Assembly: GCA_008632985.1 (NCBI GenBank)
Contig: QPGO01000193.1
Span: 1 to 64,000, forward strand
Direction of reading: 5' to 3'
Length of the DNA: 64,000 bases
From: Psammoneis japonica
Lineage: Eukaryota
Numbering within the stretch: position 1 is the stretch's first letter; every line of letters starts with the position of its first letter. The notes beneath the pieces were generated by a model that worked only from the letters and a program-made list of their open reading frames with translations, had not been told where the DNA came from and did not search any database. The position numbers and the translations under genes were made by a program. Below are positions 4,300 through 64,000 of this stretch, one piece after another.

Positions 4300-4660
4300 A
4301 ATTTCTATATATTGAACGAAAGAACGATAGCAAGTTGATCCACAGGGTTTGCTATCACAAGATGCAATAAGAACGACGCAACACAAAACAAGCGCCCGAT
4401 GTTGATGTATGATGGCGCATTCAGCATTCATAGCATTGCATGCACATGTTGAACTTCCTCGGCAGGATTCCATCGTACCGGTAGGAAGATACCGGCGCTT
4501 CCACGTGAAACTTCCCGCCATTTCCCAGCACGGAAACCTTTGATGACAGTCGTCATGAAACAGACAAACATTCACGAAGGAACGTTGTCTGTGCCGGTGC
4601 TTGTACCGGCAATCATCGCCCATCATGCCAACAACATAATACCTTGCAACATCTTACATC

Positions 4661-20500: not shown

Positions 20501-21328
20501 GTCAATGATTTTTTCTTCCCTTGCTGGTCAACCAAGTTCTTGACCTCATTTGGTGAAAGTTCTGTCCCCATTGTGGTGCTTGTTGGTGTTCATTTAGACA
20601 AACCACTGGTGCCACCTGACGACATCATCCATCTGCTGTGTGGGTTGGCATTTCTCTGCACAAGATTTGGCATCATAATTCCACTTGAGGGTGACACTCC
20701 TTCCAAATTCCTTCTCATCATGTCATCAAGGCTCCCTGTTTCATGCCTGCAAGTCCTGAACATCCCTTTTTCTGCTGACCAGCTCTGACCAAGATCACTG
20801 CTCTGCACACAGTGGGTTGTTTGCTTTCATTCCCACACCTGCAAGTGTGAAAAAGCAAGGTTTTTCTCCCTGACTTGAGCTGCTTTTGCATCCTCTTCTG
20901 AGCGCAATTGTTCTTTACCGTCATGGTGTGCACACTTTGCATCCATTCCAAAAGAAAGCAATGACCTCCTTCTTGCGCAATTTCGTTTCAATCAGTTGTC
21001 ACTCCTCACAGAGAGCAGTGGAAGTGTGGGTCAGCTCCTGGTGCCAGTGCTGTTGGCTGGGCAAAGGTGTGACAGCACTTAAAATCATTTTTTGATTTTT
21101 TGTGTGCAAGGAGGCAACATGTCCAAAGGATTCATGCAAATTTGCCATGAAAACTTTAGTCCAATGGATCAATGAAGATGCCACACTCAATTGCCTGCTT
21201 GGACATGATCCACAAAACAAAACCAAAATTCCACATTTGTGGTGCTGCTGCGCTTCCACCCTGCAACTCCGGCAACAAGCTAGCCCACACCCCCAGCACA
21301 CTAAAAGTGCGGCAGGAGCAAATGGTGG

Positions 21329-22450
21329 TTAGCCGAGATCGGCATCACCCGAGGGTGACGCCACGCCAAAACAACTTGCGATGGTTCTGGTGCCTCGTGC
21401 AGCCAAACGTTTGGCTTCGCGCATGCTTGATTTAAAGACTGGTTTGAACATGGCCAACCAGTTTCGAATCCGGTGAGCAGAGTGTGACAGGTGTTCTTCT
21501 GCCGAATCAAGGAGGAGCACCTTGTCTCTCGCAAGATGATCGTCTGTGCGAGAATGAATGGCCTTAACCTCTGCTTCTGCGTCTCGTCTTTGAGACGACT
21601 TCCTTGTTTCCGAATCGTGTCCGTGCACAGCATCGTTGTGAGCGTCCCAGAGGTCCCACCACTGCTCCCATGTGAAATTCCCAACAGTTGCAGCCCAATC
21701 CAGCCATTTCTGTTGATCTGAGAGAGTCCGACAAATGCCGCTCGACGAAAGGCAAGAGGTTTGCGTCGCATTCCACTGGACAGAAAAACGGCCATCAAAC
21801 AACTGACGCCAACCTGTTTCCCCTTGGGAATGAATTGCGGGCACGACGCTGTGATGAAATTGTTCCGAGTGCAAAAGCTCGCCTCGAAACCATGCTTCAA
21901 CAGCCGAAATTGTCAAGTCTCGTAAGGAAGGAGACGTGTGAATGTCATCGCACTTCTTGCGCAATCCTTGTAAAAATTTTCTGCGCCAGGCTTCATTGTG
22001 AGGGCAACGGAGAATGTGATCTCTATCTTCCATGGGGTCCTGACAGTGAGTGCAACAGTCCGGACGTGTCGGATTGCATCTGTGTGCAATCTTGTTGGTG
22101 GGCAGAAGATCTTGAACCAGCTTGACGGTGCTGACTTTTCGACGAATGTTTCGTGACATCAATTTTGAATGAACGTCCCAATCAATCGATGCGTGCACTT
22201 CGTCGGACCAACTGTGTTTCTCTTTCATGCACTGAACCAGTGCGGGACTCGACGCCTGACATCTGACAACCGGCTTGCATTTGGAAGAAACAGTGGCTCC
22301 TTGAAGAAGCAGGTTTGCTCGGCAATGAGGCATGCGGGGAGCAGCTTGGACATGATCCACAGTGTGCTCTTCCAAGGTCTGCAGACGATCCTCCATTTGC
22401 ATGTCCAAGGTCTCTTGGCCCAGAAAGATGCTTCTGTCAGCAACTTGGTC
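21329..22450 (-). mobile_element. 3' fragment of a non-LTR (LINE-type) retrotransposon ORF2, post-RNase H / zinc-binding region
   Basis: SIDWDVH...KLVQDLLPT...CCTHCQDPMEDRDHILRCP...Q.ETGWRQLFDGRFSVQW...WDLWDAHNDAVHG matches the C-terminal pattern of LINE ORF2 proteins; 359-aa ORF with zero Tyr. Confidence 0.8.
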
Positions 22451-24326
22451 AATGGTGCTGGCCAGAGCAGGTCAGCCTTCTGCCACAACCTGCTCAAAGG
22501 CGGCACGTGTCTTTGCAAGCAGGAGGGCCTCTTCTTTTTTCCTTTCTTTTCCCCATGACTGGGCCATGAACACTCAGAGGATTCTTGTTTGTCCCAGTCC
22601 CTTGATGGCAAGAGGCTTGGTGCCACACTTTTGGGCAATCTTGTCGAAGTTCAGATGTTTGACAAAGACTCCAATGGATCCAGCAGTGGCAAAAGGTGGC
22701 CATCACCAGGTGATGAGCTTGGCTGGGGATCATGCAGCCCCCACTGGCAGCCACTTGGTTGACGCTCACCATCAAATGAACACCAGATTCCTGAGCCAGA
22801 TGACAAACTTGTGCAGCCACCAATCCACATGTCAACAACCCCCCTCCCATGGTGATTTCACAAGAAGAATGATCTTCAATGGTTTGGGCCATTGCTCATC
22901 TTTTGGTTCAATTTTGGTCAAAGTCATGTTGACTTGTTGCTGTTGTTTGCCACATTTTCTTGGTTTGCACTGACAATTGTCAATGCACCCATTGCTTGAT
23001 TCTTGGTCTCTTTCTCCTCTTTCCTCCAGTGGTTGTTTGCCAATTGTGGCAGTTTCCCACTGCCATTGTTGTGGGGTGCTCAGGGAGGGTTGTGCACTGA
23101 AGGCATGGGCACAATGTTGATGAGTGACAAAGGTGCCAATCTTGGTGAGGTGCGGGGTGTCAAAATTGCCACTCCAATCAGAATCAGATTCAAGGGGGGG
23201 GGGGGGGGGGGGNACCACCTAGACCATTCAATCAAAAGGTCTGGTGTCAGTGCAACCTGATTGAGGGGTTCTCCCTCCTTTCACCTTCTCAAGGGGGGTC
23301 ATTTTTTGCCACTTTTTTTAGCTCGAATTTGGCCGAACAGCTCGTGATTTGCATGATTTGTCCTGAATTTCACCTTGCGTCACCATGGTGAAAACATCAA
23401 GCCATGAGTCTGTGATGGAAATGGCCCATCTGCCAACTCTTGTCCATTTTATGTTTGTTGTGTGTCAAAGGTCACATGTGCCCCAAATGTTTGTAGATGG
23501 ACCACTGCGTTTTGGAGGAATGTCGAGATTGCCATCATCGTCGTGCTTTGATCACGGTGCTTGATGTTCTCATTTTCATGTGCAATTGGGTGCAATGCAA
23601 ATGATTTTTGCATTCAAAAACAGGCACTTTAAAAAATCCCATTTAAATGCCTCAGCAATTCTGGGACAAACGCGGGCGGGGATGACCTCTCTCAAAGAGG
23701 CCAGGCCCAGTGCAGAACACGTGCCCATGCCAAGCTGGGTTTGCCCCCCAAAATGTGTGCAACTCATGCTTGGTGCATGGCGCCTCTTTTTTTTTGTGAC
23801 TGATGGAAAGGCTGAAGACAAAAGATGAAGCAACGGCATGCTTCAGCCCTGTTTGCTCATCTTTTTTGTCTGTTGGGGCAATGCTTCCACACATTCACTG
23901 CAAGTCGGGGCAGCCAAAACACAGAAGTTTGTTGACACACAGCAACAGCAACAACAGCAGCAACAACCTTGATGCTGTCATCGATGCAGCCTGTCGACAT
24001 CAAGATCAACTCATGTTGTGGTGAGAGAAGCGGGTCAAACAGCAAGGATGCACTGGGTTTCCAGGTTGCCCCCAAAACTTTCCGGGGTCTGCTTGCAATG
24101 TCTGATGTCTGCCGTGTGCCGCGCCGCGGTGCCGATGCATGGTCCCACCAAAACCTTGAAATCGGACATCGGCTCTTGGCTCAGACCAAATCAATCCTTC
24201 CATTCCATGGCACGTGTGCATGTTGGAATCTTTTGCATTGCGGCAAGGTCATGATGCGTTGTTGCTGTGACAATTGTGACTTGTTTGTGTGCCCGGAGGA
24301 AAAGTGTTGGTGTGCATCATAGAACG

Positions 24327-25130
24327 ATGTCGACCAAGGCTTTTGACAACATTCTCAAAAAGATCAATGAGACCTCCACAGATCCAAAGGATTGGGAAGA
24401 GTTTGAGAAAAAATGGAGTGAAGTTAAAGAGGCAGGTGACACCGATGAGGAACACTTTGTTTTGGATTTTGATGGACCCTGCCCTCCCTTGGGACTCTAC
24501 AAAAAAATTCTTGCCGACGGTGAGTTCCCTCATGGAGATGAGTTGGAACCTCCCTTGATTTGACTTGTGTTGTTGATTGCCACAAATTCAGGACACTGTT
24601 CAGTCGAACACTGCTGTGCTCTCAAGAAGGATTGTGGCTCCAAAGACAAGGAGGAATGCGCTCACAGATGCAATGAACGTTGGGCGACATCCCACTCCGC
24701 ATTGACGTGGTTGTTGATGGAAGTGTGCGTGAATGAGTCACAAATTTCCAATGTGGAACATGTCGTTGGCTTGATCACCTGCATGGTGACAAAAAATCCC
24801 AAGCTGTGGCAGATCAAACCAACTGCGTTATTTTCAAAAGGCGAAAGAGGTGATCCTTGGAACATGGTTTGTCAACTTTGGGAGAAGGTTGTCAACTTGT
24901 CCGGCATGGACGACAATGAAAAAACTTGACTGGCCAAGGAGCATTTTGTGCTGACTCAAGACAGTTACAAGGCTTTTCTCGAATCCCGCAAAAAGTCGGA
25001 CCTGGAAGTGTTCCTTGCAGCGAAAGGCATTGATTGTCTCCCATTTGAGGCTTTGGATTCTGCTGGCCGACCCAGTGAGAAACACACCTGAAGCTGAAAA
25101 AAGAAGAATGGACAGCATGTGCAGTGAATG
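24327..25130 (+). pseudogene. Degenerate ORF of unknown family interrupted by in-frame TGA stops
   Basis: MSTKAFDNILKKINETSTDPKDWEEFEKKWSEV... reads protein-like in one frame through TGA codons at 24561 and 24927, consistent with CGA->TGA. Confidence 0.45.
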
Positions 25131-27217
25131 GTCTCCTCGTTGCCTGTTGCACCCAGCTCTTCGTTGTGTTTGCGTTTTCCACTCAAACTGTGAAATGGAA
25201 AGCTGTGACCGGCAGCTGGCCAGAGCAGTTCATTTGTGGACAAGGTTCTTGTGTTGCGGTTGACTCGACTGAACAATCACCACTTCTTGAAACCCATGTA
25301 CGAACATTCGGGAACCGGTCTCACAAAGCAGATCGGCAGCATTTCTGAGTGGAGGAAGGAGACAACCACTCAACATCCCTCGAAGCTTCATTCTGCTCAG
25401 GGGTGCACTTGTCCATGCCATGACAGTTTGGATGAGCGGACGAGTTAGGACTTCCAGAACACATCCGGGTTCTTGCAAAATGCCTGTCACAATGGAAGCT
25501 TGACACAGGAACAACTGACAAGCCTTTTGTTCATCGTCGAGGCTCGTCACCACACTGTCAGAGAACCCTTGGCAAGGACTTAGTCTCCTTTGACAACCAT
25601 CGGGGATGATGCATCATTGCTGCTCCCAACTCTTGCTTTTGTCTCCATTTTGACCGACTGGGTTGCTCAGGAACAGAGCGCAGGCCTCGAATGATGACTC
25701 CACTCAGAGCCAAGTTTTTGGTCACTGGAAGCACCCAGTTGTGAAGAAGAGGTGCAGTGGCAGTTCAAGTCATTCATTGTGGAGATGCAAGAATGGTTGT
25801 CCATGCCATTGCCAGCGGGCTTTTTTCTGCTCAGCACCAGAAACCAGGGCTGACCATTTGTGGATCTTGACTGACATGTTCGCAGATGGCTCAATTTCCA
25901 GTGGGCTCCCAACAATGTGAACTCCAGTGCATTTGCCAGCATCTTCACCTTCAAGAAGGAATGGTGCCAAGGGATTTGTGACCTGGATTGTTCCAACTGG
26001 GATGTGGTTCAATGGGCAGACAATGGCACAGAAGTGGACCAAAAATGACGGCCATCATGACCGCCGGCTCCTGTCTGGCCCTCGCACTGTGATTTCCTTC
26101 CTGGTGCTGGTGCTGACAACTGACATCAGCGTGTGCTTTTTAAAACAATCACAGGAGAAAAGGGCAAAGGCAAGAGGATTTGATTTTTGGGATTTTCTGC
26201 TGCACCAGAAAGGTGCGGTGTGCTGCACGCCTCATCGCTGCTGGCAAAAAGCAGCGACATGAGGGTGGTGTGTTGTCACAATGTTTGTCATGCTGGTGAT
26301 CATGTGTCCTGGATTCTTTTGTCTTTGCAAACACTCAGTTTGTTGAGTTTGCAAGAGCACTCATTTGCAAAAGTCCCCCAGAACAGCCCTCGCTCATTTT
26401 CAAACCATCGCGGCAACAGAGAGCTCTGCGCTTTTTCTGCCAGTCACTTTTGATGTGTTCAACATCATTGAATGACTGAGACTTCATCCTGGGGGACTTT
26501 TTTACATGTTCACAACAGTGTGACATGTCATTGTGTCAAGCAGCCATTGCAAAGTCATCGTCAGAGAGGGTTGGAAAGTGTTTGTCATCGTCATCCGCTT
26601 CAAACGGCAACTTGTTGAGCAAATTGCACTCATGTGCACCACCAACGTTGTCTGTCCAAAATTTCAACACCACATTTGGTTTTGTCACTCACTTTTAAGC
26701 TGCTCGTAAATCAACACAAGCGCAAGAGTTCGCAGGTGACATCGCTCCCTCCAAGAGGAGGTGCAGCGAGTTGCGAGTTGGCGCAAAATAGTCACGAAGC
26801 ACCGGTTTCTGAAAATGTCAGCCTCACTCACACGCAAACTGTTGGGTCAAGTGAGTGTGGCACTTTTTTTCTTGTGACTGCGAAGAAGCTAATGACAGCC
26901 ACTTCCATAAGTCATTATATGAAGGTGTCAATAAATATTGTCAGACCGACAATGTCTTGACATTGGTTTTTTCTTCAATGACGCTCACTATCGAACAATG
27001 AGAACGACGAATGAATCCAGGGCTCCACGACTTGATGCTGCCACAACTATCTTGTTGATCTCTTGACACGCTTTTTCTCGATTCTTGATTGAGAAACGTC
27101 AAGATAAGGTAGTAGCTGGTGTGTTTTGGACGGGAGGATACGTCCACATAACGTGAGAAAAAAGAACAAAAAGGTTGAGGTGTTCCAAGAGTAGACAGCC
27201 ACTGCATTCAAAGCACA

Positions 27218-32039: not shown

Positions 32040-32740
32040 TGACTAGCAATCACGTTTCCTCGTCTTATGCTCGCTTGACGCTGTTTGCCCACCCAATTTC
32101 CAAGGTTATTTCGTTCCTCTTTGTGCGAATATAATAGGTAACGCAATCTGTATTCTAGACGCTTTTCACGGCCGTGGTCAAGTTTCCCGTCCTTTCTACG
32201 ACGCATGGCCTGTACACACAAAATGACGAAAAGTACAGTGTTGCCGATGGGTGGTGATGAGCCTTCGTCAGGAGCTTCTAGCTGGAGTCTCTCCTTTGAG
32301 GAACGACTTGTCTGCCATTGATTCTGCTGTAACAACCGGTTCATCCATTCAAACTTTGGTTGTACAATGGGCACAGGAAAGACTGACACTCCATCAAATG
32401 ACACAGTCATGTGACACACATTTAACCTCAAGCATCAGGCTTTAATGCTTTGCTGATGCATGCCCATGGAGAGTCAAACTTTTGATGCAAGGAAAATGAA
32501 AAAGGTGGTTGCATTGTGTTTCAACAAGCAGAGCAAAAGGTGAACAGGTGTTTGCAAACCACAGAGATCAAATTTCCCAGCCTTTCTCATTGAACACATT
32601 GCATGCTTGCCCACCTCCTGAGATTCTTTCCACACCTTGCACATGCTCGCATGGAACTGTGCAATGTCCCTTGCATTTCTTGAGTCAAAGGAGAAGTCAA
32701 AACACACCATTTCCCACTGCACAGAGAACATGCGCACCAA
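32040..32740 (-). pseudogene. Scrambled helicase-associated (HA) domain fragments
   Basis: RRRKDGKLDHGREKRLE, EERNNLGNWVGKQRQ and ...MRKAGKFD fragments resembling the HA repeats at 6.6-7.8 kb. Confidence 0.55.
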
Positions 32741-32847
32741 ACAACATCAATTTTTCCAGTCATTTTTCTGGGTTGCTGTTTCTGGCTTCAAAATTGCACT
32801 GGGGGGCTCTGCACAGGGGCCAACAAGGAACAGTGTCACAAACACAA

Positions 32848-33232
32848 CATTTTTCCTTTTGTTTCAATCAAAAATGTTTTTCAAAGTGTGACAAGGCACT
32901 GGCATGTGCTGCGATGTTGCTGTTCATTGTTCCAAGTCAAAAATGGGGCAAATGAATCATCAGTGCAGACATTGTCTCCATGTTGTCACAGCATGTGTGT
33001 CGTCGTTCCAACACGGATTTTGTGCACCATGTTTGTGCACAAACAGCATTTTTCCTTTTGTTTCAGTCAAAATCATTTTTCAAAGTGTGACAATGCATTG
33101 GAATGTGCTGTGATGTTGCTGTTCATTGTTCCAAGTCAAAAATGTGGCAAATGAATCATCAGTGCGGACATTGTCTTCATGTCGTCACAGCGCGTGTGTC
33201 GTCATTCCACAACACGGATTTTGCACACCATG
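32848..33232. repeat. ~199-bp imperfect tandem duplication inside a TpA-depleted island
   Basis: catttttccttttgtttca...gatgttgctgttcattgttccaagtcaaaaatg...aacacggattttg..caccatg occurs at ~32848 and ~33047. Confidence 0.85.
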
Positions 33233-33776
33233 TCTTTTTGTGCAATTGCTCAAACTTGCCAAGTTTGAGCAAATGGTGGTGCAAGTTTGGGAGCTTGGGC
33301 AATTGCTCAAACTTTTGTCGTGGAAAAGCCGAGGCTGGAACGCTCAGTCATGGCCGCCAAATGTTGCTTGGTGTGGTGGTGTTTGCCAATGTCCATTGTG
33401 ACTGCACGCACATGTGCATTTGAGCAGTTTTCCCAAATGGTGCTGCCTCACACACTTGGAGAAGAGTGGCAACACATGCCCACAGGTGCCAGGTGATGCA
33501 AGCCAAAATTTGCACACTGTGAGGTGTTTTCACATCACTTGGCCTCACACCTCACACCTCTGCATTCTCTCTGAGTGCCACATGGACAAACTCTCCTGCC
33601 CTCAATTCTCAGCTCTCTGACAAAGCAAGAAGATTTTGCTGGTGTCTCACCTTGTCTTGGGACCCATGGGGTCTGCAACACACAGCTGCGCAGAACAACC
33701 AACCTCTCAATCGTCACACAGGCCCTGCCACTCTCTGCTCTCTGCCAGCTGGCAGCAGCCAGCTGCCAGAGCTCTG

Positions 33777-34764
33777 GTGTCTAGTCTGCCAGGTTTTTTC
33801 CTCAATTGAGGCAGCAAAAAGCACCTCAATTGAGGTGGTCAAAATGCACCGTGGACAGGAAATAACATGCTGTTTTGGCAAATGACACGACAGACGATGA
33901 TGTCAATTCCATTGCGCAAAGTGGTCTCCACAATGACAATGAAGCTGTTGCAACACTCGTTGCACCTTGCTTTGCATGCACAATGCGCTCGCCTGCACCA
34001 AATTTGAATCTTGATGTCCACAAATTAGCCACAAACGCGGGGTGCGAAAATGGCCCATCACATTCATAAAAACACTTTTGACACACTTTCAGCCACAGCA
34101 TCGTCTCGCATTCAACACATGTTGATGCATCTTGTGCTTGTCATTGTTGATTGTTGTGTTTTGGCGACATGAATTGGCACAAAGATTGTTGATCTCGGTC
34201 GTTTGTTGCGACAGCAATTCTGATGCTGCGATCGCAAATGATGGCCCCTGAAAGCTCCGCACACAACAGCGCACTTCTCTTTGTCACAAAGAAGACATCC
34301 TGCTGTGCATGCAGCATGTGTTTGCCATCGTTGCAGACCCGAATTTTTGAGGTGCCATTTTTTGCATTTTGCGCTTGACCCCTTTTTTTTCGACTGTCAG
34401 CTCGATTTCGAGACTCGGACTGCCATGACAAGGTCTTCCTTGTTGTGTTGCACGATTCTGTTTAAAGGTAGATTGTTGAGAGAGTCCCAGAGTTTGTAGA
34501 ACGGCGGTCGCATCATCGTCAAAGTGCCAAAATTCGCGCACATTTGGCATGCGCATGTTTGCATGCCAACAAGTGAAGAAGAAAATGTGCTGTCGAGTGC
34601 GAACAAAGAGCCCAACTGTTGCCCCAAGAGGTTTTAAAGCATGGAGAACAACATTCTAGTGTCACTTAGGGGCTACAACGGTTTTAGCGATTTAGCGAGG
34701 GGGGTCGAAAAACTACCTCAATTGAGGTTTTTACCTCAATTGAGGTGCTTGGTAGACTAGACAC
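33777..34764. mobile_element. Non-autonomous TIR DNA transposon (~1 kb) with paired palindromic subterminal motifs
   Basis: Left gtgtctagtctgccagg vs reverse complement of the right end gtgtctagtctaccaag. CCTCAATTGAGG palindrome twice at each end (33800, 33824, 34716, 34734). Flanked by TG (left) and TA (right). Confidence 0.8.
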
Positions 34765-39089: not shown

Positions 39090-41420
<2,331 letters not shown>

Positions 41421-41992
41421 TCTCTCTACTCTCTAGCTAGAGAGAGTAGCTCTACTCTAGAGTAGCTCTCTGCTAGCTAGAGTGGCTGCCGGTAGAGCCA
41501 CTGCCACTCTACAGCAGAGAGAGTAGAGAGAGCTTAGGAGTCGCTGGCCGGGGCGCCACGACCACGACCCACGACCCGCCAAGACCCACGACTGTCCAAA
41601 CGCGCACTAACACGACACATAAAAATCCAAAAACAACACAACAAAAAACAAATAAAAACACAAAACATGATGCCGATGCCGCATTGCATACACATAGCAT
41701 GTTGCAACTACAAGTGTTCTTACAAGGTTCCAGTACAGTTGTGAACCTTCTTAAAATCCACACCAAAGTCAAAGCACCATTCTCGTGTTTTCCAGAACGC
41801 CCGCTGCAGCCACGGATTCGTCCAGTTGCTGTACCATAACCATTCGTGCACCAAATCATAGTACCTCTTTCACCGACGCAGCAGTGTCGGAATTTGGTAT
41901 CATTCTGTCTCCAACAGCACTCCCCCATATTTGAACAACTGATGAGTTGCCTACAGGATAAAAAGCAAGTAGCATAAGAAGAATCAGAAACC

Positions 41993-51419: not shown

Positions 51420-51521
51420 ATATATATGTAGTATAGGTGGTAACGAAGCTAGTATTTGTGAAACTACACGTTCGATTGTCTACCCTACCGTACTAATTTC
51501 AGTCATTGCTGCACATGATAT

Positions 51522-53021: not shown

Positions 53022-53106
53022 TTGATCCTCCTCGTTTTCTTCTGTTGTTGAATCTCTCACAGTTTTCCACTGAATCTCGTTTCAAACGTCCCCAATATAT
53101 CAAACC

Positions 53107-53868: not shown

Positions 53869-54432
53869 AATGTGATGTTATTTGCGTGGCTACTTGTTGG
53901 TAGAGAGACTTGCATAACTCATGCTGTGCATGATAATGTTGTGTAAATGAGAGAAATTATGTAAGCAACCCAGTTTATCTTTTCTGAATAGGCATCGGAG
54001 CTCATGCAACACCGTATCTTTTACGTGATGTCTGCCTACGTGAGACAACTTTCACGCAGCTCCGAGACTGTAGCTTTCTCGTCATTTTCGATCAGTCAAT
54101 GCTCTTGCCTTTCAAAACATCCAGTTGAACATATCTCAAAATGTGATGACTGAAAAGGGGAAAGCTATTACTTCGCAAGCTCCCGGTATAAAAGGTTATC
54201 AGACTACCGTGTCTGGGAAATCCAACAACATATTTACTAGGACAGTAGCAATAAGCACGGTGCTCTAGTGAAGAAGGAAAGTGAGCGGAGGATCTCAGAG
54301 AAATCCAAGCACTGTCTACATGCACTGATGTCTTCCCACCATGGTTTTCAACCATTTCATTGCAACTGTTTTTAGGCGCTGGCACCAACACGTACCCACG
54401 TACTTTGCCCGGTGGAAGATGAATGACAAGCA

Positions 54433-57208
54433 TCAGTTGCTTTGTTGTCGAACGCTCCACCGAACGCCAATGTCATCCAAACGTTTCTTGTGGTCTCGTT
54501 TAAGTGTCGCCGTTTTCCTCAACCTGTGCTGCCAACTTAACCACAACCCAAGATTCTTTCCATCCTCTGTGTGCTTCTGTGGAACGTTGCAATCCCCTTC
54601 GCGTTTCTCATGTTGGATGAGAAGACGAAACATTTCTTCCCATCTTTCAGAAGGAACATTCCAAGCAACGCCAACGTTTGTGAGCCATTCCTCAAGAGCA
54701 CTGTCGAGCTTCCCGGCATTCCTCAAAAACCGCTGCCGATGTGACCACTTTCCAAGGTTCTTTCCATCCTCAACATGGCTGTCTCGAATGTTGCAATCCC
54801 CCACGCAATCTTCACAGTGGACGAGGAGTCGAAACATTGCTTCCCAACGTTCAGAAGCAACCTTCCAAGAAACGCCAACATTGTTGAGCCGTTGCTCAAG
54901 ACCACTGTTGAGCTTTCCGGCATTCCTGGAAGCACGCTGATTTTTTAACCAACTTTCAAGGTTCTTTCCATCCTCTTTGTGCTTTTTGCAATGCGGCAAT
55001 CACCCTCTTGTTTCTTACATTGGAGGAGGAGTCGAAACATTGCTTCCCATTCTTCAGAAAGAACATCCCAAGCAACGTTAATGTTTTTGAGCCGTTCCTC
55101 GTGAACTCGGTCAAGCTGCCCAGAATTTTTCAAAAATCGCTGCCTGCATGACCACGCTCCAAGGTTCTTTCCATCCTCGACATGTCGTTGTGGAACATGA
55201 CAATCACCTTCTCTTTCTTCACAGACCAAAAGCAATTCACACATTTGATCCCAAAAGCTTTCACGGTTCTTGCACTCCGTGATTGCTCGATTCATGATGT
55301 CGTTCTTCAATTCAAGCGGCATTGAGTCTGGGAGCATGAACGATTCAAGCACCCGAGAAGGGAATTCTGCATCACACAAAGACCTTCCGAGTCTGGCGCT
55401 CTCATCAATTACAAACACGACATCCTCCCACAATTTGGGATCCAATCCAACCATTGCATCGAATGCCAATGTGAAAGATTCATAGCCACCTTCATCTTCC
55501 ACAAATCCAAGTGTCTCCAGTTGTGGGTGAGGGTGCCAAAACATGTCCACGCTCTTTGCCAGGAGCCCTCCGGCTGACACGTCCAATCATTTGGCGCGTC
55601 AACGGCACTTCGGACAGGATCTGCCATCACTGCCAACTCCCAATCTGCCTCGTCCATGCCGGTGGCCAATGCTCCACAGTTGGCAACAATCGATTTGGTT
55701 GCTCATTTTGCTCTTGACAAGATTTCTTCCCGCTTGGCAGGTGACATGTCAGAGCTGCCACTGACCGCAAATGCGGTGATGTCGTCCTTCTTGAGAACTG
55801 GTGCTGCATCACGCACAAAAGCACGAGCACAGCAGTTCATGGAATGGAATGACATGGTGCTGCTCACATTGAGTTTGTGAAAAGCTGCTTGAATTGCAAA
55901 TGGGAGCAGGCAGTCCTTCGAGAGTGCCGGCGGGATGGAATCATCAAGGAGCGGATCAGCAAGGACGGCGTTGATTTTGTCGGCATCCAACACACAAAGT
56001 GTGATTGGAACGGTGACATTTTGGTTCACGGCATCACTCAGCGTCCGTTTCGCAAGGCATGGTCCAAACAAGGTTGCATTGTTAAAACTGCGGACACCAG
56101 CAGCCTTTTTGGGCTCTGAGCTTTTGTTGGGAATGAGCGTTCACGAGCCATCCTTACAAAGCTTGCCACCGACAATGGCAACCTGCTGTGGAGTGTCCGT
56201 GTGCCGACATGGAGCAGCAGTTAGAAACAAGTGACAATCAACTGGGATCAACGAGTCACAGAGACCATGTCCAGACATTTTGCCGATCCCTTCCATTTCA
56301 TGTGCCTCATCAAATGCGGCAAACCCAATGGCACCAACGTGCTTCGACAGCGCCTCTCCAACCTCAGGCAACGACTTGCAAGTGCAGCCAATGAAGGATG
56401 AGCCGTCATTTTTTGAGGATGGAAATGCAGCAATCTCGTCAGAAGATGTTGTGCAATCCTCAGTGCGATTGGTCTGGCTCGCCACAATCAATCGCGAATG
56501 AGGCACATGATCAAGGACTCCAAATCGATCCAAGCCATCCAGCACTTGATCCACGAGTTTCAAAGTTGGTGTGACACACATGGCTGATTGAAGCATTTCT
56601 CTGCTCGGACCCATTCCGTCCATGGCAAAGTTTTTGATCGACTTGAGTGCAGGCAGTGTTTTGCCCCACCCCGGCGGAAGCTGGACGTTGGCCCGGCGAC
56701 CACCTTCTGCCCTTCGAGATTTCTTGTTGTTGTGAGCATTCTTTCTGCTTTTTCCTCCATCCACCTGTGCAGGAGCTCTGCAAAAGCACTCTGCAGTCGA
56801 ATCTAAAATGTCATTGTGACGATCATCTTGCTGTTGACACTCGTCTTGATAATTTTCTGACACACTCGCACTTGTTTCTGATGCTGTTTTCTCTGCTGCT
56901 CTCAAGTGATCTCCTTGTTCTCGACATCCTTTTGTCGGATGAGCTCTGTGATCATCATGCTTCTGACTTGTGTCCTCCAGGATTGCTCCAACCCTCACTG
57001 CATCGACTGCTGCATCATTCAGAACCTCAACTGCTGCATGCGCGCTTGTCTGATGCTTGGGCGCTGTCGTCACTCTTGAACGGCTTCTAAATTGTGCGGA
57101 TTGAAACTGAAAAGACCCGCTGAACTGCTCCAGCATCAAAACAAGGAAAATGTGGTGGCAGTTGTTCATGGTTGGTGTGTGTGATTGAAGGCACTGTCGC
57201 GCTGTCCC
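54433..57208 (-). pseudogene. Decayed SF2 helicase + HA repeats, copy 2 (inverted relative to copy 1)
   Basis: Colinear with 4661-7440 starting at gggacagcgc; LPPGWGKT, FDEAH, EDEGGYESFTLAF, four HA repeats. Confidence 0.9.
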
Positions 57209-57399
57209 AGGCATCAATCAAGTTCAAAATGGTTGAACGCCAAGGCTCAAAGGCGCGGGCGCGCGGGCACGCGACATCTGTTGTTCTGCTGGGAGTTGCA
57301 CGAAATGTCGAAATTTTCGTTTTTCTTGGTTTTTCCCTGTTTTTCGCGATTTTTCGAGACAAGAATTCATTTTGTTCATCCCCCAAAGTGTTGCATTTA

Positions 57400-57900
57400 G
57401 CAAGTGCACTGGTGTGCGAACGAACACCGACTCCAGATGGGGTCAAACGGCGAACGCGGTGATGGTTCGTTGATGATGCGAAACGAGAAAATCAGTTCCG
57501 TCCACCATCACTGTGCATGCCATTGTCATCCATGAACCTGTTTTGCCAGTCAATCTAAGATGAGATGATGGTGAAGCCAATGCCAGCACATTGATTTTCA
57601 AAAAGAGATTGGAGTGATGGTGCACAACAAGTCCAGATTTGCAATTAACTCCACCCCGACACAAAACCATTTTCTTGTCATGACTTTGTGTGATCCACCA
57701 CAGATTCCCGGCACAATGGTTTCAGAACAATGCAGATTCAGAGAACAAGGGCACACAACAAGTGAGTGGGCAGGAACCCATGAGAAATGTTGCCTTCATC
57801 TTGAAGAAGGCCCCACAACTTGCACACCATGTCTTGCAAAGTGCTCAAGTGTGGCACGAACCTGTGGTTCCAAATCCATTCCGATCTTGTCAGCCTCTGA
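57400..57900 (-). pseudogene. PIF/Harbinger-like DDE transposase N-terminal remnant
   Basis: VCKLWGLL...PTHLLCAL...GICGG...TRKW...IANL, then IDWQNRFMDDNG..CTVMVDGTDF RI.NEPSP FDPIW CSH (first catalytic Asp in VDGTDF). Confidence 0.75.
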
Positions 57901-59068
57901 ATGACTGTCCTTGCAAGACAATCCACTGTGGCTCTGGGCAGGCAAAGTTGCACAGTGAGCAATGCAGTCGTGTGTTGCGCATTTGACATTGCACTGTCAT
58001 GCCAAAATGATTTCTGCCGCACCGCTGGTGCCACACAGCAGTGTTTTTGTTGCCACAGGTGGATTGATGGTTCCATGTGTCGGGTGGGGTTCTCATTCAT
58101 TTCCAATGTCTAAAAACAATGTTTTGATGTCAGGCCTTTTAGAGAGATTCCCTTCGGGAATGCTTTTGGAGCAGTTTTGGAGCACTTTTGGCACGGCTCC
58201 GGAATGGTGGAAACACGGGAATGATGAAATGCCTGTTTCGTTGAGTGGCATTTCCATGTTGGAGCTGTTGGCGGTTGTTGCAGACATGGTTCAGTGTCAA
58301 ACAATGCCAGCAGTTGCAGCGCATCCTTGCAGCTCAACTCACAGCCACTGCAACTCCAAATTGTTGAGACTTCCAATGGCCGTTCTTTTTCTCAGAGAAA
58401 ATGGAAATGTGTTTTGACGGGTGCACCTTTTGGCAATAAATCCATCTGATCTGTCAAACTTTTGCACTGCTGTGCCACACTCAAACAGCTCCAACTGTGG
58501 TGCTGCACTGACAACAGCACATCACATGTCTCGTTGGCGAGTTGACCGGCTCCAAAGTTTGATTTCCGCATGAATCAGTGCATCATTTGAGAACGTTCTC
58601 GGAATGGTTTTGGAGCGCTTTTGGAGCGGCATGCAAGGGAATCTTGAGTGACAACAATCCAAAATAGTCCAGCCCTGGTCCCCCCCAAGAGACCTTTTTT
58701 GGTTTTGGCGGTTGCAGCCATTTGGCAGGATTTGAATTTGAAATCTGTGCTGTTGCGTGAAGTGATGAGGTTGAGACAGTCGTCAACAGGAATCTTTTGA
58801 AAATGACCCGTGACGCAGAGAGCACAAAACAATTGAGGACCCCTGTGGAATCCACACGTTTTTGCACTGAAGCTGTTGTGTTTGCACAATTTGTGCAAAA
58901 ATGGACTTGACTGTCATCGGATCAGGTGCAGACTTGTTCCAGACTCAGGTGGCGCGCACATGCCCCTTTTTGCAGAAAAAAAAAATTCATTGACCACTCA
59001 GTGGTTGGTGATTGCAGACTTCATTGACCACTCAGTGGTTGGTGATTGCAGACTTTTTCGTGTTGGTC

Positions 59069-60299
59069 CGGCAGTCGGGCAGTCGGGGGGTCGGGGGGTC
59101 AGGCAGTCGGGCAGTCGGGCAGTCGGGAAGTCCGTCTGAATTTGAAAGTGTGTCCCTCGGATTTTGGAAAGGCATGGGTTGTTCAGTGCAGATGAATTCT
59201 TCGGATTCGTAGAATGATCATTGAGGACATGAGAGGTCGTGGGGACATCCTAAAAAATCGACAAATTCCCTACGACGGGTGCATGGCACGGTTTTTCAGG
59301 AGAGCTCAAAAGTTCTCAAAAATTGGGATTGCTGGCGTGGCATGTTGAAAAATGTGTTCAGTTGTGAACAAAGACAACCAATCGTGAATTCTACACGAAA
59401 CTGTCACATTTGGGAAAACATGTCAAACAATGAGTGAGTTTGTGCGATGCGCTGTTGTGGTGATAAATTGGAAAAAAAAGAGTGTCCGTGCACCTTGCTG
59501 CAGCCCCAAAAATGGCATGAGACATCAAACATGACGGTCATCCACGTCACCGGTGTGGTGGCCACGCCGCCACCTGTGTGCGTGCAGGCAGTGCAGCATG
59601 CAACGGCACACACCCACACCCACACCCACAAAAAGAAAGACAAGTGGTCAATGCTCCCCGCAGGCCTGGTTTTCATGTCAGTCCAGCAGTCGGGCAGTCG
59701 GGCAGTCGGGCAGTCGGGCAGTCAGGTTGTCCGTCTGAATTTGAAAGTGTGTCCCTCGGATTTTAGAACGGGATGGGTTGTTTGGTGCAGATGAATTCTT
59801 CGGATTCGCAGAATGATCATTGAGGACATGAGAGGTCGTGGGGACATCCTAAAAAATTGATGAATTCCCTGCGACGGGTGCGTGGCACGGTTTTTCAGGA
59901 GAGCTCGAAAGTGCTGTAAAACTGGGATTGCCGGCATGGCATGTTCAAAAATGCACTCAGTTGTGAACAAAGATGATCAATCGTGAATTCTACACAAAAC
60001 AGTCACATTTGGGAAAACATGTCAAACAACAAGTGAGTTTGTGCGATGCACTGTTGTGGCGATAAATTGGAAAAAAAAAAGAGTGTCCGTGCACCTCGCT
60101 GCAGCCCCAAAAATGGCATGAGACATCAAATGCAACGGTCATCCGCGTCACCGGTGCGGTGGCCACGCCACTCAGCCACCACAACACCGGCCCCGGCGGC
60201 AGGGCCCTGCGCACGTGCAGACAATGCAGCATGCAACGGCACACACCCACCCACAAAAGCGAAAGACAAGTGGTCAATGCTCCCCGCAGGCCTGGTTTT
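59069..60299. repeat. ~600-bp diverged tandem duplication, each unit starting with (GCAGTCGG)n
   Basis: gtccgtctgaatttgaaagtgtgtccctcggatttt at ~59130 and ~59729; both units end in agacaagtggtcaatgctccccgcaggcctggtttt. Preceded by a 35-bp tandem pair at ~58986-59054. Confidence 0.9.
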
Positions 60300-62749
60300 A
60301 ATGCTTCAGTCAACACCGAACACATTCAACAAAATTGATGACATCAATGGCTTGTGAGCAAAATGAACAGAGTGAACTTGAACAAACAAACAGCCAAACC
60401 GGCCATGGCTTTCAGTGACCATGACGGCCCACTTTTTTCAGCCTTGTGGAAAATTGAATGTCATGACCAGGATCTCCACATTTGACACAGTCTGTGTCAT
60501 CAACAACAACAGTGAAAATGCTTGTTGAAGGCTGCAGCGCGGCACAACAATGCCAAATCTTTCAGCAACAACAATTGAGCCTCCACTCACTCACAATTTG
60601 CCTCTGAGGACCATTTCTTTTCCATTGCCATGCACATTTCCTCAACATGTTTGACTGACTCAAGTGCATCAATCGTTTGTGCCTTTTAAACCATGAAAAA
60701 TGGTCCGAAGTCGATGCCATTGTGTGGGCTGAGCTGCACTTCTTCTCACGTCGTCCCAAACTCATTGATCAACGAATGCTTCATTTGATCCGTTGAGTGT
60801 AACTCGCACTCACGCATGAAAACAAAACATTAATTGTGCTGTGTTAAAGACTGGTTTACACATGTTGATGACATTTTACATGTTTCTTGTTGCATTGAGG
60901 CACACATGAATCGCTCATCGGATGATTTGAGCCCTCAACTTGCGGTGCAATTCAGCGACTGACAACTGAGTCCATCAACAGTTTCGAATGCATGGGTGCA
61001 CGCACAAGACAATTCTGCATGCACCCACAACAACACATTTGCAAGTTGTCATGTTTTTGCCATCGAAAATGGTGCCGCAAGTGTGGACCGCGCGTTTCAT
61101 GCAAAAAGGGTCATTTTTTCGTGCGTGAGTGCACCCAAGTCTGGAACAAGTCTGCATTTTTGCAAATGTGTTGAAGAAAAATGCACCTGATCAGAAAACA
61201 GTCAAATCCATTTTTCGCAAAGTTAAAATTCACTGAGGACAGACAGACAGACTTGTCTTGGTGCTGTCCTGCACAATTTCTGCACAACGACTCTGCAGCG
61301 CGAAAGATTGCTGTTGGACTGATTCAAATCGGAGTTCGGGATCGAGAAGGGAACTCAACGGCATCTCGCTCTCCAGTCGCAACACAATGTGCAGAAATGC
61401 CTGGACACATGCTGTGCTCACAGCAACTCCCATGACATGTGTGTCCAGACATTGGAATGTGCGCGCAGTGGAAAATGAGCTGACGGGCAGACACCGACAG
61501 AAGGAAGGTGTCATCATCATCGATCATCGCATCGTTTTGTTGTTCATTCAGTGTGCTTGATGTCACCAGCACACCAACCCAATTGAGTGAGTGGAGGTCA
61601 TTTTTTTCATGCACAGCGCCATTTTGACACTCTCGCTCCAGCGGGTTGTCTTCTCAATGAGAAATTTCGGCGGGGTCTGGTGAAGACAACCACAATCCAA
61701 GTGGTGCAATGCCCGCATTTCCAGGGGCATTTTGTCTCAGCACCAATTGAAAAAAAAGACAGTTGAGAAACCTTCCATGGAATTTTGACATTTTGTCAAA
61801 TCAAACAGAGTCTCAAATGCACAGGATTTGTCCTGCAGCTGAGTGCTTCAAAGGCCGTGCATCTGTGGTGTGTTCCCTGGCAAAAAGCACAAGCAGTGTT
61901 GCAGCGGCAAGTGCGCAAACTTTCGCAGCATCATGCAGATGGTGGCACTCGCATGCAGGCAGGCAGGTCTCTGACATTTCTGTGCATTTTTGCAGGGAAA
62001 AACGAAAATTTCGACATTTCACACAACTCCCAGCAGTTGCAGCCAGCTGGCTGGAACAATTTGACTGAATGTTTTTTCAATGTTCATCCGCTGCATTCGA
62101 ATTCATGGATTTTTGCTGTGTGTGTGGCAAAAAAAAAAAAGCCGCTGACCATGGTGAGTTCGCAGTTGCGTCGTCGTCCATGTTTGTGTGGGAGGTTGCA
62201 TCGGTGCATGAGTGTCTCTGTGTTTTCCCTGTCAGAAGGCATCTACAGTGCTGTGGTGCAACTTCCCCCAAATTTGATTTGATGGGTCATTTCAACATTG
62301 CTGCTCATTCATTTGGCATGTTTTTGCTGGTGTTTTCTGCTGCCACCAACAGAGTGCAAAGAACGATGAGGCACAGCCATCAGAAAGAGACAGCAGTCAG
62401 CCAGGAGCACCAAGTTGTAAAACCACAGACAGAAAAATTGCCCAACCCTTCCACCTGCCTCTCATGAGCTTCGTCAAAAGAGCGCTTCTCTTCCACCCAG
62501 CTGCTGCTTTGGTGGTGCCTGCTCCAGCTCCAGGGGGAACAAAATCATCCCTCAATGTCCTTTTTCAACGTCGACAATTGCAAACAAAATGAGATGCACC
62601 CACATGCAAAATGCAGCACATTTCATGTGACTGCATGCCGTTTCTTTTGAAAATTTGCACCCCAAAAGTGGAGAGTTTGAGCGAGACAAACAACGCTCTC
62701 TTGCCAAATGCTCAAAAGCATTCCACCTGCAGCTGGAACAGGCCTGGCA

Positions 62750-63110
62750 CCTGGCACCTCACCAGCCTTGAGCAAGGATCTTCAGGTCCCTTGTTGTTTG
62801 AGAATGACAAGGCAGCAATCTTGTCTGATGATGTTGTACAACCCTTGGCACTGCTGGCCTGGCTTGTGCCACGATCAACCTTGAATGAGGTGCAAATGAC
62901 CAAGTGCACCACCCCAAGCTTGTCAAAGCATCCAGCACTTGATCCACAAGTTTCAAGATTGAAGCAATGAAGGCAGCTGATGAAAGTCTTGTTCTGCTCA
63001 CACCCAACCCACCCAACACACAAAATTTTCTTTTCTTTCAAAGCAAGGAGCATTTTGCTCCATCCCTGTGGTGAGTTGGATGTTGGCCTGGCGAGCACTT
63101 TCTGCTCCAC
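62750..63110 (-). pseudogene. Third, more diverged fragment of the SF2 helicase gene (motif I region)
   Basis: Reverse complement gccaacatccaactcaccacagggatggagcaaaatg and LKLVDQVLDAL...TTSSDKIAA match copy 1 at ~5190-5520. Confidence 0.7.
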
Positions 63111-64000
63111 TTTTTTAGCACAACCATTGAATCTGATGTTTCATCAAGATGGCTGTTTGCCATTGACAGCTGACTTGGCTTTTTCTTGAAAAGCACTTGC
63201 GCTGCTGTTCCTGGTGTGTTGTCACTGATGGTTGTTCTGCCCCTCACATTTGCTTGATTTCTTTTTGACAACATTCCCATGGAGCAGGTTCTGAGCCAGT
63301 GCATGGGACAAGCACTTGAAATGTGTCTTCACTGCACTGCTGACATGTTGCTGCACCTTGGAAATGAGTGCGCAGGCATCACAAAAACAATGGTTGGGAA
63401 GCAGCCACTTGTGCAAGCAACCCCAAGCACCATCCACTCTGTTTCAAACAATTGTGGGACAGCACCCACTGGAAGCACCAACAACAAGTGAGTGCATGGC
63501 CAAGTGCAACAACTCATCAAAAATGGAATTGCTTTTCAATGCACTGCCACTTGACTGCACATTTTGACAACCTTTTCACAAGAGTCGGGGCAAAAATGTG
63601 GGACACAAACAGTCTGTTCTCCATGTTGTTGTAGAGACTTCAGTTCTTGATCAGTTGAAGAAATGCAAGATCTGCAACAAAGACAGCCCACTCAGCCAGA
63701 GCATCAAAACATGGTCTCAGGAGATTCTGAAACCAGACTTTCCTGGTGCAAAAGAAACTGCAATGCCATCGGCAAAAGTGGCAGACCATGTCAGCCAAGA
63801 AGTGCTCAATTTGCCAGAACATGCAATCAAATTGGAGAGTGTCAGACAACTCATTTCATGCAAAGAACCTCACATTTCAAAAATGGCTTGGTGGGGATGA
63901 TGTGGGGAGCACCATTGCCAAAGCAATTGACATCTCGCAGATGATGCAGCAATGGCTTGTAGAGCCACTTGTTCACTTTCATTTGACAAGGGCCCTCTTG

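What the first reader, a model, noticed from the sequence alone, without database searches (positions are those of the whole stretch)
54433..57208. Two helicase-HA copies record the mutation direction site by site
Seen, copy 1 vs reverse complement of copy 2: tttATgg/tttGTgg, acTAga/atTGga, atTAtgg/atTGtgg, atgTAtgaa/atgTGtgaa (WDQMYE vs WDQMCE), gTAgaa/gCAgaa, cacTAcatt/cacCAcatt, caTAcg/caCAca. Also ttgCAtga vs ttgTGtga (LHD vs LCD), the two alternative products of one ancestral TA (or CG). The conserved aromatic position of the HA repeat reads H or C in nearly every repeat (LVQHKK, LVCKE, LQCKK, IQHEK) and survives where it is Phe (LVQFKE). This is internal evidence that TA was ancestral and was lost independently in each copy.
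Basis: seen in the sequence. Interest (0 to 1): 0.85.

Follow-up and report, generated by a model that had tools for sequence, protein, structure and literature searches.

The report
TA-erasing hypermutation in diatom repeats
Two dead copies of a diatom helicase gene show that nearly every TA step in their DNA was rewritten to CA or TG, separately in each copy, which is the footprint of a repeat-targeted mutation process so far reported only once, in an unrelated alga.

Summary
Copy 1 (4659-7436, +) and copy 2 (54452-57210, -) are pseudogenes of a diatom helicase + HA-repeat family, 84.6% identical. Intact homologues polarise the changes. At family-conserved tyrosines only 1 of 10 (copy 1) and 1 of 12 (copy 2) survive, and 7 and 9 are His or Cys (TAY to CAY/TGY). 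Phe and Trp are kept in 42 of 43 cases. The pair has 52 CA-versus-TG double differences, against 2-9 for every other double-transition class. CpG decay predicts about 9.5 of them. Of 20 that could be polarised, 17 come from TA and 3 from CG.

The copies lie in sharply bounded islands covering 25.5 kb of the 64 kb. There TA is at 0.07 of expectation, against 0.59 outside, and CA/TG is in excess. The edges of the TA-poor zone match the homology edges within about 50 bp. Contigs from a public run reproduce the TA-free sequence exactly at single-copy depth.

The same signature (TpA to TpG/CpA) was shown experimentally in Bigelowiella natans in a 2026 preprint. My six literature searches found no report for diatoms. 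The enzyme is unknown. An adenine deaminase acting on DNA is the leading guess.

The parts
4659..7436 (+). Copy 1: pseudogene of a ResIII/DEAD + Helicase_C + HA-repeat helicase. It has 15 TA where 99 are expected at the local baseline.
   Evidence: Pfam HA 6.1e-12 and 3.9e-29, Helicase_C 1.6e-8. tblastn against P0006 needs two frames and meets two in-frame stops.
54452..57210 (-). Copy 2: second pseudogene of the same family, inverted. It has 13 TA where 103 are expected.
   Evidence: Pfam DEAD 1.3e-5, ResIII 1.3e-4, HA 1.5e-30. P0006 residues 8-527 align in one frame with two TGA stops, followed by a frameshift.
6382..6644 (+). Patch of copy 1 that kept 7 TAs, where copy 2 has lost 5 of them.
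   Evidence: TA positions and paired contexts.
6620..7436 (+). HA repeats of copy 1 (approximate start). The aromatic column reads C, H, H, F.
   Evidence: hmmsearch with an HA profile built from the P0001 repeats.
54452..55270 (-). HA repeats of copy 2 (approximate end). The aromatic column reads C, C, C, H.
17730..26500 (.). TA-poor, CpG-poor, CA/TG-rich island (50 TA in 8771 bp). No Pfam match in its ORFs.
32444..34460 (.). TA-poor island (4 TA in 2017 bp).
39090..41427 (.). TA-poor island (3 TA in 2338 bp). It includes a low-complexity stretch with CA 461 against TG 183.
57211..64000 (.). TA-poor island continuing from copy 2 to the end of the window. Summed contig depth is up to about 9400, against about 58 for unique DNA.

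Best explanation
The window is nuclear DNA of a diatom. The two elements are dead members of a helicase + HA-repeat gene family that appears to be multi-copy. After the two copies separated, almost every TpA in each was converted to CpA or TpG. This is an A:T to G:C transition at TpA, hitting either strand with equal chance and site by site. Per site the rate was roughly 50 times the background transition rate, and per dinucleotide about 5 times the CpG loss seen in the same DNA.

The process is confined to discrete islands whose edges coincide with the edges of the repeated element. Neighbouring genes keep an ordinary TA level. I read this as an active, targeted hypermutation of repeated or silenced DNA, of the same kind as the TpA hypermutation seen directly in Bigelowiella natans mutation-accumulation lines. 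Ordinary 5mCpG decay is superimposed on it.

Shown here: the direction, the TpA specificity, the symmetry between strands, the independence of the two copies, the sharp boundaries and the near-saturation. Inferred: that an enzyme does it, most likely an ADAT2/TadA-like adenine deaminase acting on DNA at 5'-T-A, with a weaker effect when the next base is A. Also inferred: that targeting follows repeat or silent-chromatin status.
For: Direction. With the closest homologue P0006, 0 of 12 (copy 1) and 0 of 13 (copy 2) Tyr are kept and 8 in each are Cys or His. Phe is kept in 13 of 18 and 14 of 18. At positions where at least 3 homologues agree at 80% or more, Tyr is kept in 1 of 10 and 1 of 12, against 238 of 290 and 234 of 302 for all other residues.

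Doubles. There are 52 CA/TG doubles against 2-9 for other classes, and no CG/TA pairs. The CpG model, fitted to 74 CG/CG and 75 singles, predicts 9.5 doubles. Of the polarised doubles, 17 come from TA and 3 from CG.

Amount. About 107 ancestral TAs are inferred, against 99-103 expected. Per-copy TA retention is about 0.13, against 0.66 for CpG.

Both strands, no tracts. Copy 1 holds CA at 30 of the doubles and TG at 22 (p = 0.33). The runs test gives 26 runs against 26.4 expected.

Islands. TA is at 0.07 of expectation, CG 0.53, CA 1.72 and TG 1.64 inside. Outside, TA is 0.59 and CG 0.97. AT, AA and TT are hardly changed. TA density switches within about 50 bp of the homology edges at 4659, 7436 and 54452.

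Context. The island/outside ratio of surviving TA is 0.50 for TTAA, 0.31 for CTAA, 0.17 for GTAA and 0.115 for ATAA, but 0.013-0.083 for the other contexts.

Not an assembly quirk. Contigs of run X1 match 54348-54655 and 61973-63312 with 0 differences, at depth 61-65 against 57.7 for unique DNA.

Relatives. Three metagenome loci of the family have TA at 0.59-0.81.

Precedent. bioRxiv 10.64898/2026.01.13.699255 (abstract, Results and Discussion read) reports de novo mutations that are almost all A to G or T to C, all at TpA, in two integrated viral regions. It also reports TpA-poor, CpA+TpG-rich clusters.
Against: No de novo event is observed here. Everything is inferred from fixed differences, so a slow passive bias cannot be excluded.

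Not every repeat is affected. A 603-bp tandem pair (97.5% identical) and a 356-bp dispersed pair (91.6%) keep their TAs, with 24 and 10 shared TAs. Repetition alone therefore does not trigger the process.

No transposon or virus domain was found in any island: 0 real Pfam matches in 41 ORFs. The foreign-DNA label used for B. natans is therefore untested here.

A simple one-rate model does not fit the 6 TA/TA and 16 one-sided sites. Patchiness, context effects or back-mutation must be invoked.

No whole genome is held for this window, so I could not look for a candidate deaminase.

Run X1 may be the sample the window was assembled from, and its platform is not on record.

The 3'-neighbour preference assumes that the islands once had the composition of the surrounding DNA.
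Confidence: 0.7

Rival explanations
1. A passive bias rather than a dedicated editor. In silent, methylated or late-replicating DNA, a context-dependent replication error at TpA or a biased mismatch repair slowly drives TA to CA/TG. A T:G-to-C:G correction system that exists to counter 5mC deamination would be one such repair; the very-short-patch repair idea for CTAG depletion in E. coli is the analogue (recalled, not checked here).
For: The islands are also CpG-depleted (0.53 against 0.97), so TA loss goes together with probable cytosine methylation. Outcomes are independent site by site and symmetric between strands, as expected from many small events. Ordinary DNA in the window is already at TA 0.59.
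Against: Loss per TA is about 5 times the CpG loss and about 50 times the background per site. Switches occur within about 50 bp at the element edges. A 260-bp patch escaped in one copy only. In B. natans the same signature appears in bursts in some lines only.
Confidence: 0.15
2. A sequencing or assembly artefact. Modified bases in heterochromatin, for example a modified T or A at TpA, are miscalled, so that TA is written as CA or TG in the assembly.
For: The islands are sharply bounded and also CpG-poor, as modified DNA would be. The outcome at each TA looks like a coin toss. The platform of the supporting run is not on record.
Against: Contigs built from public reads reproduce the TA-free sequence with 0 differences at full single-copy depth (60.9-64.8 against 57.7). 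They do not split into two half-depth versions. The copies also carry ordinary divergence: 121 transversions, indels, frameshifts and TGA stops derived from CGA.
Confidence: 0.05
3. Only methyl-CpG decay. The CA/TG pairs and the His/Cys codons come from ancestral CG (Arg CGY giving His or Cys), with no TA-specific process.
For: CpG decay is really there: 75 CG-versus-TG/CA singles, 10 of 34 polarised single changes are C to T at CpG, and Arg to His/Cys/stop/Trp is seen at conserved Arg. Three doubles polarise to CG.
Against: Homologues have Tyr, not Arg, at the His/Cys sites. The model predicts 9.5 doubles where 52 are observed. CpG decay cannot lower TA from 0.59 to 0.07.
Confidence: 0.03
4. 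Editing before insertion. Each copy was hypermutated as an RNA or cDNA intermediate, in the manner of ADAR or APOBEC action on retroelements. Each would then arrive already edited, which would explain the sharp element-wide edges.
For: The TA-poor zone equals the repeated unit, which is close to the coding region alone.
Against: Editing of one RNA or one cDNA strand gives one-sided changes, whereas here both directions are equal: 30 against 22, and Tyr to Cys 9 against Tyr to His 7. There are no strand-coordinated runs. No reverse transcriptase was found and I saw no obvious poly-A run at the 3' end of the alignment. In B. natans the process acts on integrated single-copy DNA.
Confidence: 0.05
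5. Selection against TA in these elements, for example to avoid a TA-cutting nuclease or TA-targeting transposons.
For: None specific.
Against: The copies are pseudogenes with stops and frameshifts. Conserved tyrosines of the helicase core are destroyed, and the outcome differs between the copies.
Confidence: 0.02

Closest known systems
TpA hypermutation of integrated viral DNA in Bigelowiella natans (Mettrop et al., bioRxiv 10.64898/2026.01.13.699255, 2026; abstract, Results and Discussion read)
   Same: TpA to TpG/CpA only, on both strands. It is confined to discrete regions, with the rest of the genome ordinary. The long-term footprint is TpA-poor, CpA+TpG-rich clusters, mostly without annotation.
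   Different: That work concerns a chlorarachniophyte (Rhizaria), while this window is from a diatom (Stramenopiles). There, de novo events were seen in mutation-accumulation lines, while here only fixed differences are available. Their NCLDV region is still at Rho TpA 0.45, while the islands here are near saturation (0.07). Their targets are single-copy viral inserts, while here the targets appear to be multi-copy families, including a host-type helicase gene. The preprint's main text contains neither the word 'diatom' nor the word 'trinucleotide'.
Repeat-induced point mutation (RIP) of ascomycete fungi
   Same: Hypermutation by transitions at one dinucleotide, confined to repeated DNA with edges at the repeat boundary. 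It acts independently on each copy and leaves dead genes.
   Different: The chemistry is the mirror image. RIP turns CpA into TpA (C to T) and enriches TA, whereas this process destroys TA (A:T to G:C). Short or young repeats in this window are untouched. Whether it depends on homology, on a sexual phase or on a RID-type methyltransferase is unknown. The RIP features are recalled and were not checked in a paper here.
Methyl-CpG deamination decay of silenced repeats
   Same: It produces the same end products (TG/CA) and acts in the same islands.
   Different: It starts from CG, not TA. It accounts for only about a fifth of the CA/TG doubles and none of the Tyr losses.
tRNA adenosine deaminases TadA/ADAT2-ADAT3, and A-to-I editing with U at position -1
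   Same: The edited A is preceded by U/T. A DNA activity of ADAT2 is cited in the preprint.
   Different: No enzyme was identified here. The natural substrates are RNA loops. The apparent 3' preference seen here (T, C > G > A) is a rough inference. The comparison with TadA's UACG site is recalled, not tested.

Membership tests
TpA-targeted A:T to G:C hypermutation (B. natans type) | Changes are A to G / T to C | tested here: met
   Conserved Tyr (TAY) reads His (CAY) or Cys (TGY) in 16 of 22 copy-sites and is kept in 2 of 22. Of the polarised CA/TG doubles, 17 come from TA and 3 from CG.
TpA-targeted A:T to G:C hypermutation (B. natans type) | Restricted to the TpA dinucleotide | tested here: met
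   Island TA is 0.07 against 0.59 outside. AT is 0.85 against 0.94, AA 1.23 against 1.15 and TT 1.31 against 1.14. Background transitions are only 0.039 per aligned site.
TpA-targeted A:T to G:C hypermutation (B. natans type) | Both strands hit (TpG and CpA products) | tested here: met
   30 against 22 (p = 0.33). Runs test z = -0.11.
TpA-targeted A:T to G:C hypermutation (B. natans type) | Confined to discrete regions, rest of the genome ordinary | tested here: met
   Five islands totalling 25,474 bp of 64,000, with edges within about 50 bp of the homology edges.
TpA-targeted A:T to G:C hypermutation (B. natans type) | Targets are of viral, transposon or other foreign origin | tested here: inconclusive
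   0 of 41 island ORFs have a meaningful Pfam match. The helicase family looks like a diatom nuclear family. Summed depth suggests multi-copy families.
TpA-targeted A:T to G:C hypermutation (B. natans type) | Very high de novo rate, in bursts, in living lines | not testable with these tools
   This needs mutation-accumulation or pedigree sequencing.
Fungal RIP | C to T at CpA, creating TpA | tested here: not met
   The direction is the opposite: TA is destroyed.
Fungal RIP | Acts on any duplicated segment above a length and identity threshold | tested here: not met
   The 603-bp tandem pair at 97.5% and the 356-bp pair at 91.6% keep their TAs. They may, however, be too young or too short.
Methyl-CpG decay as the sole cause | Ancestral state CG at the CA/TG sites | tested here: not met
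   3 of 20 polarised doubles are from CG. The model predicts 9.5 of the 52.
RNA-level A-to-I hyperediting of retro-copies | Changes on one strand only | tested here: not met
   The products are symmetric: 30 against 22, and Tyr to Cys 9 against Tyr to His 7.
Helicase + HA (PF03457) proteins | ResIII/DEAD, Helicase_C and HA domains in order | tested here: met
   Pfam matches. Homologues P0001, P0002 and P0004 carry PF04851, PF00271 and PF03457. Both window copies are broken.

The most novel reading that the evidence does not exclude
Diatoms possess a DNA-editing genome defence that is the chemical mirror image of fungal RIP. It recognises repeated or silenced elements to within tens of bases of their ends and deaminates adenine at 5'-T-A on either strand until TpA is almost gone. 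Together with CpG methylation it funnels both YpR steps into CA/TG. Because the same signature occurs in a rhizarian, the system would be old and widespread in the SAR supergroup, and it would shape a large share of diatom genomes (40% of this window).
Probability: 0.4. Interest if true: 0.9.

Novelty: new member of a known kind. Interest (0 to 1): 0.8.

Why it matters
TpA-specific A:T to G:C hypermutation has been reported once, in a 2026 preprint on a chlorarachniophyte, and its enzyme is unknown. Finding its saturated footprint in a diatom has three consequences.

- It moves the phenomenon into a second supergroup branch, one with genetic tools and great ecological weight.
- It shows that the process can erase nearly all TA from repeat families, with edges as sharp as in RIP.
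- It adds mechanistic constraints: both strands are hit, outcomes are independent site by site, TAA is partly refractory, and the process coexists with CpG decay.

There are practical consequences too. Islands without TAA or TAG stops throw up long false ORFs. Tyr to His/Cys recoding hides homology in repeat annotation. A natural enzyme that edits A in DNA at TpA would also interest makers of base editors.

Tried and rejected
- Whole genome: none is held for this window, so I could make no genome-wide island map, no full set of family copies and no deaminase search.
- Earlier notes of this scan: nothing on this genome, nothing by sequence, and nothing relevant by words.
- Same-species intact paralogue as an outgroup: not found. 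The best relatives are 42-61% identical.
- Metagenome scan for related loci: only 3 short contigs at 40-49% identity, all with ordinary TA. They served only as a composition control.
- Pfam on 41 island ORFs: no real match, only one chance-level metallothionein hit.
- RNA evidence: no RNA holder is listed among the runs.
- Strand-coordinated tracts, as a processive single-strand deaminase would leave: none.
- One-rate model for TA loss: it does not fit the 6 shared and 16 one-sided TAs.
- Literature: searches for TpA depletion or hypermutation in diatoms and algae returned only the B. natans preprint. The library lacks most subscription journals.
- Structure prediction, complex prediction and RNA tools were not used, because nothing here called for them.
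Full report
**What the window is.** The 64-kb window has 48% G+C and is dense in long ORFs on both strands. These include a GAF-HisKA-HATPase-receiver kinase, eIF5, a RING protein and two GT90 glycosyltransferases. The eIF5 ORF finds its best named relatives only in diatoms: Ditylum, Cyclophora, Thalassiosira, Cyclotella, Epithemia and Stephanodiscus, at up to 83% identity. The helicase's named relative is from Pseudo-nitzschia. I therefore treat the window as diatom nuclear DNA. No whole genome is held for it.

**The two copies.** An inverted pair joins 4659-7436 (+) to 57210-54452 (-). Over 2754 aligned, ungapped columns there are 2331 matches and 423 mismatches (84.6% identity), made up of 302 transitions and 121 transversions. 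Both copies encode ResIII/DEAD, Helicase_C and HA repeats, and both are broken. The closest homologue, P0006, aligns to copy 2 over residues 8-527 in one frame that holds two TGA stops, and a frameshift follows. Copy 1 needs two frames and also holds two stops.

**Classifying the mismatches.** Of the 302 transitions:
- 104 lie in 52 adjacent double differences, CA in one copy and TG in the other;
- 75 are CG versus TG or CA;
- 16 are TA versus TG or CA;
- 107 are in other contexts.

The six other possible double-transition classes number 2-9 each, and there is no CG/TA pair. By a naive count, then, TA-involving single differences are few. The signal is in the doubles. A CA/TG double has two one-step ancestors, CG or TA, so polarity is the whole question.

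**Polarity from intact homologues.**
- P0006 alone: 0 of 12 tyrosines are kept in copy 1 and 0 of 13 in copy 2, and 8 in each are Cys or His. Phe is kept in 13 of 18 and 14 of 18.
- Positions where at least three of the six homologues agree at 80% or more (300 and 314 positions): Tyr is kept in 1 of 10 and 1 of 12, and is Cys or His in 7 and 9. Phe is kept in 9 of 10 and 11 of 11, and Trp in 10 of 10 and 12 of 12. All other residues together are kept in 238 of 290 and 234 of 302 (Fisher p = 3e-6 and 1.4e-6).
- The changed codons are CAY or TGY, one step from TAY.
- At the aromatic column of the HA repeat, 25 repeats of P0001-P0005 read Tyr 22 and Phe 3, and four repeats of P0007 read Phe. The eight repeats in the window read His 3, Cys 4 and Phe 1.

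**Polarity of the doubles themselves.** For doubles inside one codon, the homologue majority fits the TA ancestor in 9, the CG ancestor in 2, and neither in 2. For doubles across a codon border, the residue of the second codon says A was ancestral in 8 and G in 1. One fits neither and 16 could not be polarised. The remaining 13 of the 52 lay outside usable frames. In total 17 come from TA and 3 from CG (p = 0.003 against 1:1).

A separate calculation agrees. With 74 conserved CG/CG and 75 one-sided CpG differences, per-copy CpG retention is 0.66, and only 9.5 CA/TG doubles are expected from CG. The other roughly 42 imply about 85 TAs lost in both copies. Adding 16 lost in one copy and 6 kept in both gives about 107 ancestral TAs. 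The TA level of ordinary DNA in this window predicts 99-103. Per-copy TA retention is about 0.13. Per dinucleotide the loss is about five times the CpG loss. Per site it is about fifty times the background transition level, which is 0.039 per aligned site for the pair.

**Independence of the two copies.** At the ten Tyr sites converted in both copies, six are His in one and Cys in the other, and four are Cys in both. This fits two independent 50:50 draws. The four concordant sites could also be older than the split. Among the 52 doubles, copy 1 holds CA 30 times and TG 22 times (p = 0.33). The order of outcomes along the gene shows 26 runs where 26.4 are expected. Both strands are therefore hit equally, and each TA behaves on its own. 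This speaks against editing of a single RNA or cDNA strand, and against long single-strand tracts.

**Islands.** The TA loss is not a property of the whole window. Ordinary stretches hold about 20 TA per 500 bp. Five stretches hold 0-5: about 4660-7440, 17730-26500, 32444-34460, 39090-41427 and 54433-64000, together 25,474 bp. Observed/expected values are:

| Dinucleotide | Inside islands | Outside |
|---|---|---|
| TA | 0.07 | 0.59 |
| CG | 0.53 | 0.97 |
| CA | 1.72 | 1.17 |
| TG | 1.64 | 1.21 |

AT, AA and TT hardly differ between the two. Around copy 1 the TA density switches within about 50 bp of the homology edges at 4659 and 7436, and likewise at 54452 for copy 2. Downstream of 7436 there are faint further HA-like pieces in DNA with ordinary TA. 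Within copy 1, a 260-bp patch (6382-6644) kept seven TAs, five of which copy 2 has lost.

**Which TAs survive.** TAs that survive in the islands are mostly followed by A. The island/outside ratios are 0.50 for TTAA, 0.31 for CTAA, 0.17 for GTAA and 0.115 for ATAA, against 0.013-0.083 for the other contexts. By my own arithmetic on these ratios, an additive two-strand model fits them roughly, with rates ordered T >= C > G > A for the base after the A. This is an inference. It assumes that the islands once resembled the surrounding DNA.

**Is the sequence right, and are the islands repeats?** One public run (X1, coded, platform not on record) holds 77% of the sampled words of 52500-58500. Its contigs match 50000-54375 with 3 differences. 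They match 54348-54655, which spans the edge into copy 2, with none. They also match 61973-63312, inside an island, with none. The depths are 57.7, 64.8 and 60.9. A miscalling artefact at modified bases should split such places into two half-depth versions, and it does not. The run may be the sample the window was assembled from, so this checks the assembly and not the biology. Summed depth of contigs at least 85% alike is 380-890 over copy 2 and 1000-9400 over 57.5-61.7 kb, against about 58 in unique DNA. This is not a copy number, but it indicates multi-copy families. Part of the island (62142-62608) is at single-copy depth.

Repetition alone is not enough to trigger the process. A 603-bp tandem pair at 2086-3250 (97.5% identical) and a dispersed pair, 38423-38778 with 43579-43937 (91.6%), keep 24 and 10 shared TAs and show 0 and 1 CA/TG doubles. 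The islands gave no transposon or virus domain: 41 ORFs were scanned and the only match was one chance-level hit. Three related metagenome loci have ordinary TA, at 0.59-0.81.

**What is known.** A 2026 bioRxiv preprint (10.64898/2026.01.13.699255) is the one close precedent. It reports that in mutation-accumulation lines of Bigelowiella natans two integrated viral regions mutate about 1000 times faster than the rest. In those regions 230 of 231 changes are A to G or T to C, and these fall on TpA. They occur in only some lines. The genome also holds 124 clusters that are TpA-poor and CpA+TpG-rich. The authors propose an ADAT2-like adenine deaminase acting on DNA. The main text contains neither the word 'diatom' nor the word 'trinucleotide'. 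Six full-text searches for the phenomenon in diatoms or algae returned nothing else. The library lacks most subscription journals.

**Verdict.** TA was ancestral and was lost after the copies parted, mostly independently. The qualification is that CpG decay runs alongside and accounts for about a fifth of the CA/TG doubles. The best explanation is an active, TpA-specific, two-strand A:T to G:C hypermutation aimed at repeat-family or silenced DNA. That is the same kind as in B. natans, here in a diatom and close to saturation. The enzyme, the trigger and the timing are inferred, not shown. A passive bias in silent DNA is the main rival. An artefact, CpG decay alone, editing before insertion and selection are each unlikely.

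Noticed in passing
window 7437-8100 (+): Faint further HA-like pieces (for example a GKNLGAW..QR motif and a G.L..REKRL motif) lie just beyond the end of copy 1, in DNA with ordinary TA density. Either a resident older HA gene fragment sits there, or only the part shared with other copies was hypermutated.
   Followed up: partly
window 2086-3250: Two tandem units of about 603 bp, 97.5% identical, at the 3' end of the phytochrome-like kinase gene. They are not TA-depleted (24 shared TAs).
   Followed up: partly
window 38423-38778 and 43579-43937: A dispersed direct repeat, 91.6% identical and 5.2 kb apart, not TA-depleted. Six of its 30 mismatches are TA versus CA/TG.
   Followed up: partly
window 40490-41425: A low-complexity stretch whose minus-strand ORF is 29% Cys. 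CA outnumbers TG 461 to 183 in its island, the only strongly one-sided island.
   Followed up: no
window 50897-50998 and 52026-52138: Contigs of run X2 skip 100 and 111 bases here, as spliced transcripts would, so X2 may hold RNA although it is not on record as RNA. The same run holds a 1690-nt contig about 88% like copy 2 (55304-56208), that is, another family member.
   Followed up: no
all TA-poor islands: With TAA and TAG gone, only TGA stops remain, so every frame carries long false ORFs (43 ORFs of 60 aa or more in each 4-kb copy region). Gene finders would over-call here.
   Followed up: partly
window 1-2304 (+): An open-ended ORF with GAF, HisKA, HATPase_c and receiver domains, looking like a diatom phytochrome-type sensor kinase.
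   Followed up: no
window 8460-9941 and 10567-12060 (-): Two tandem GT90 glycosyltransferase paralogues, 61% identical at DNA level, with ordinary TA.
   Followed up: no
window 23213 and 40577: Single N bases, both inside TA-poor islands.
   Followed up: no
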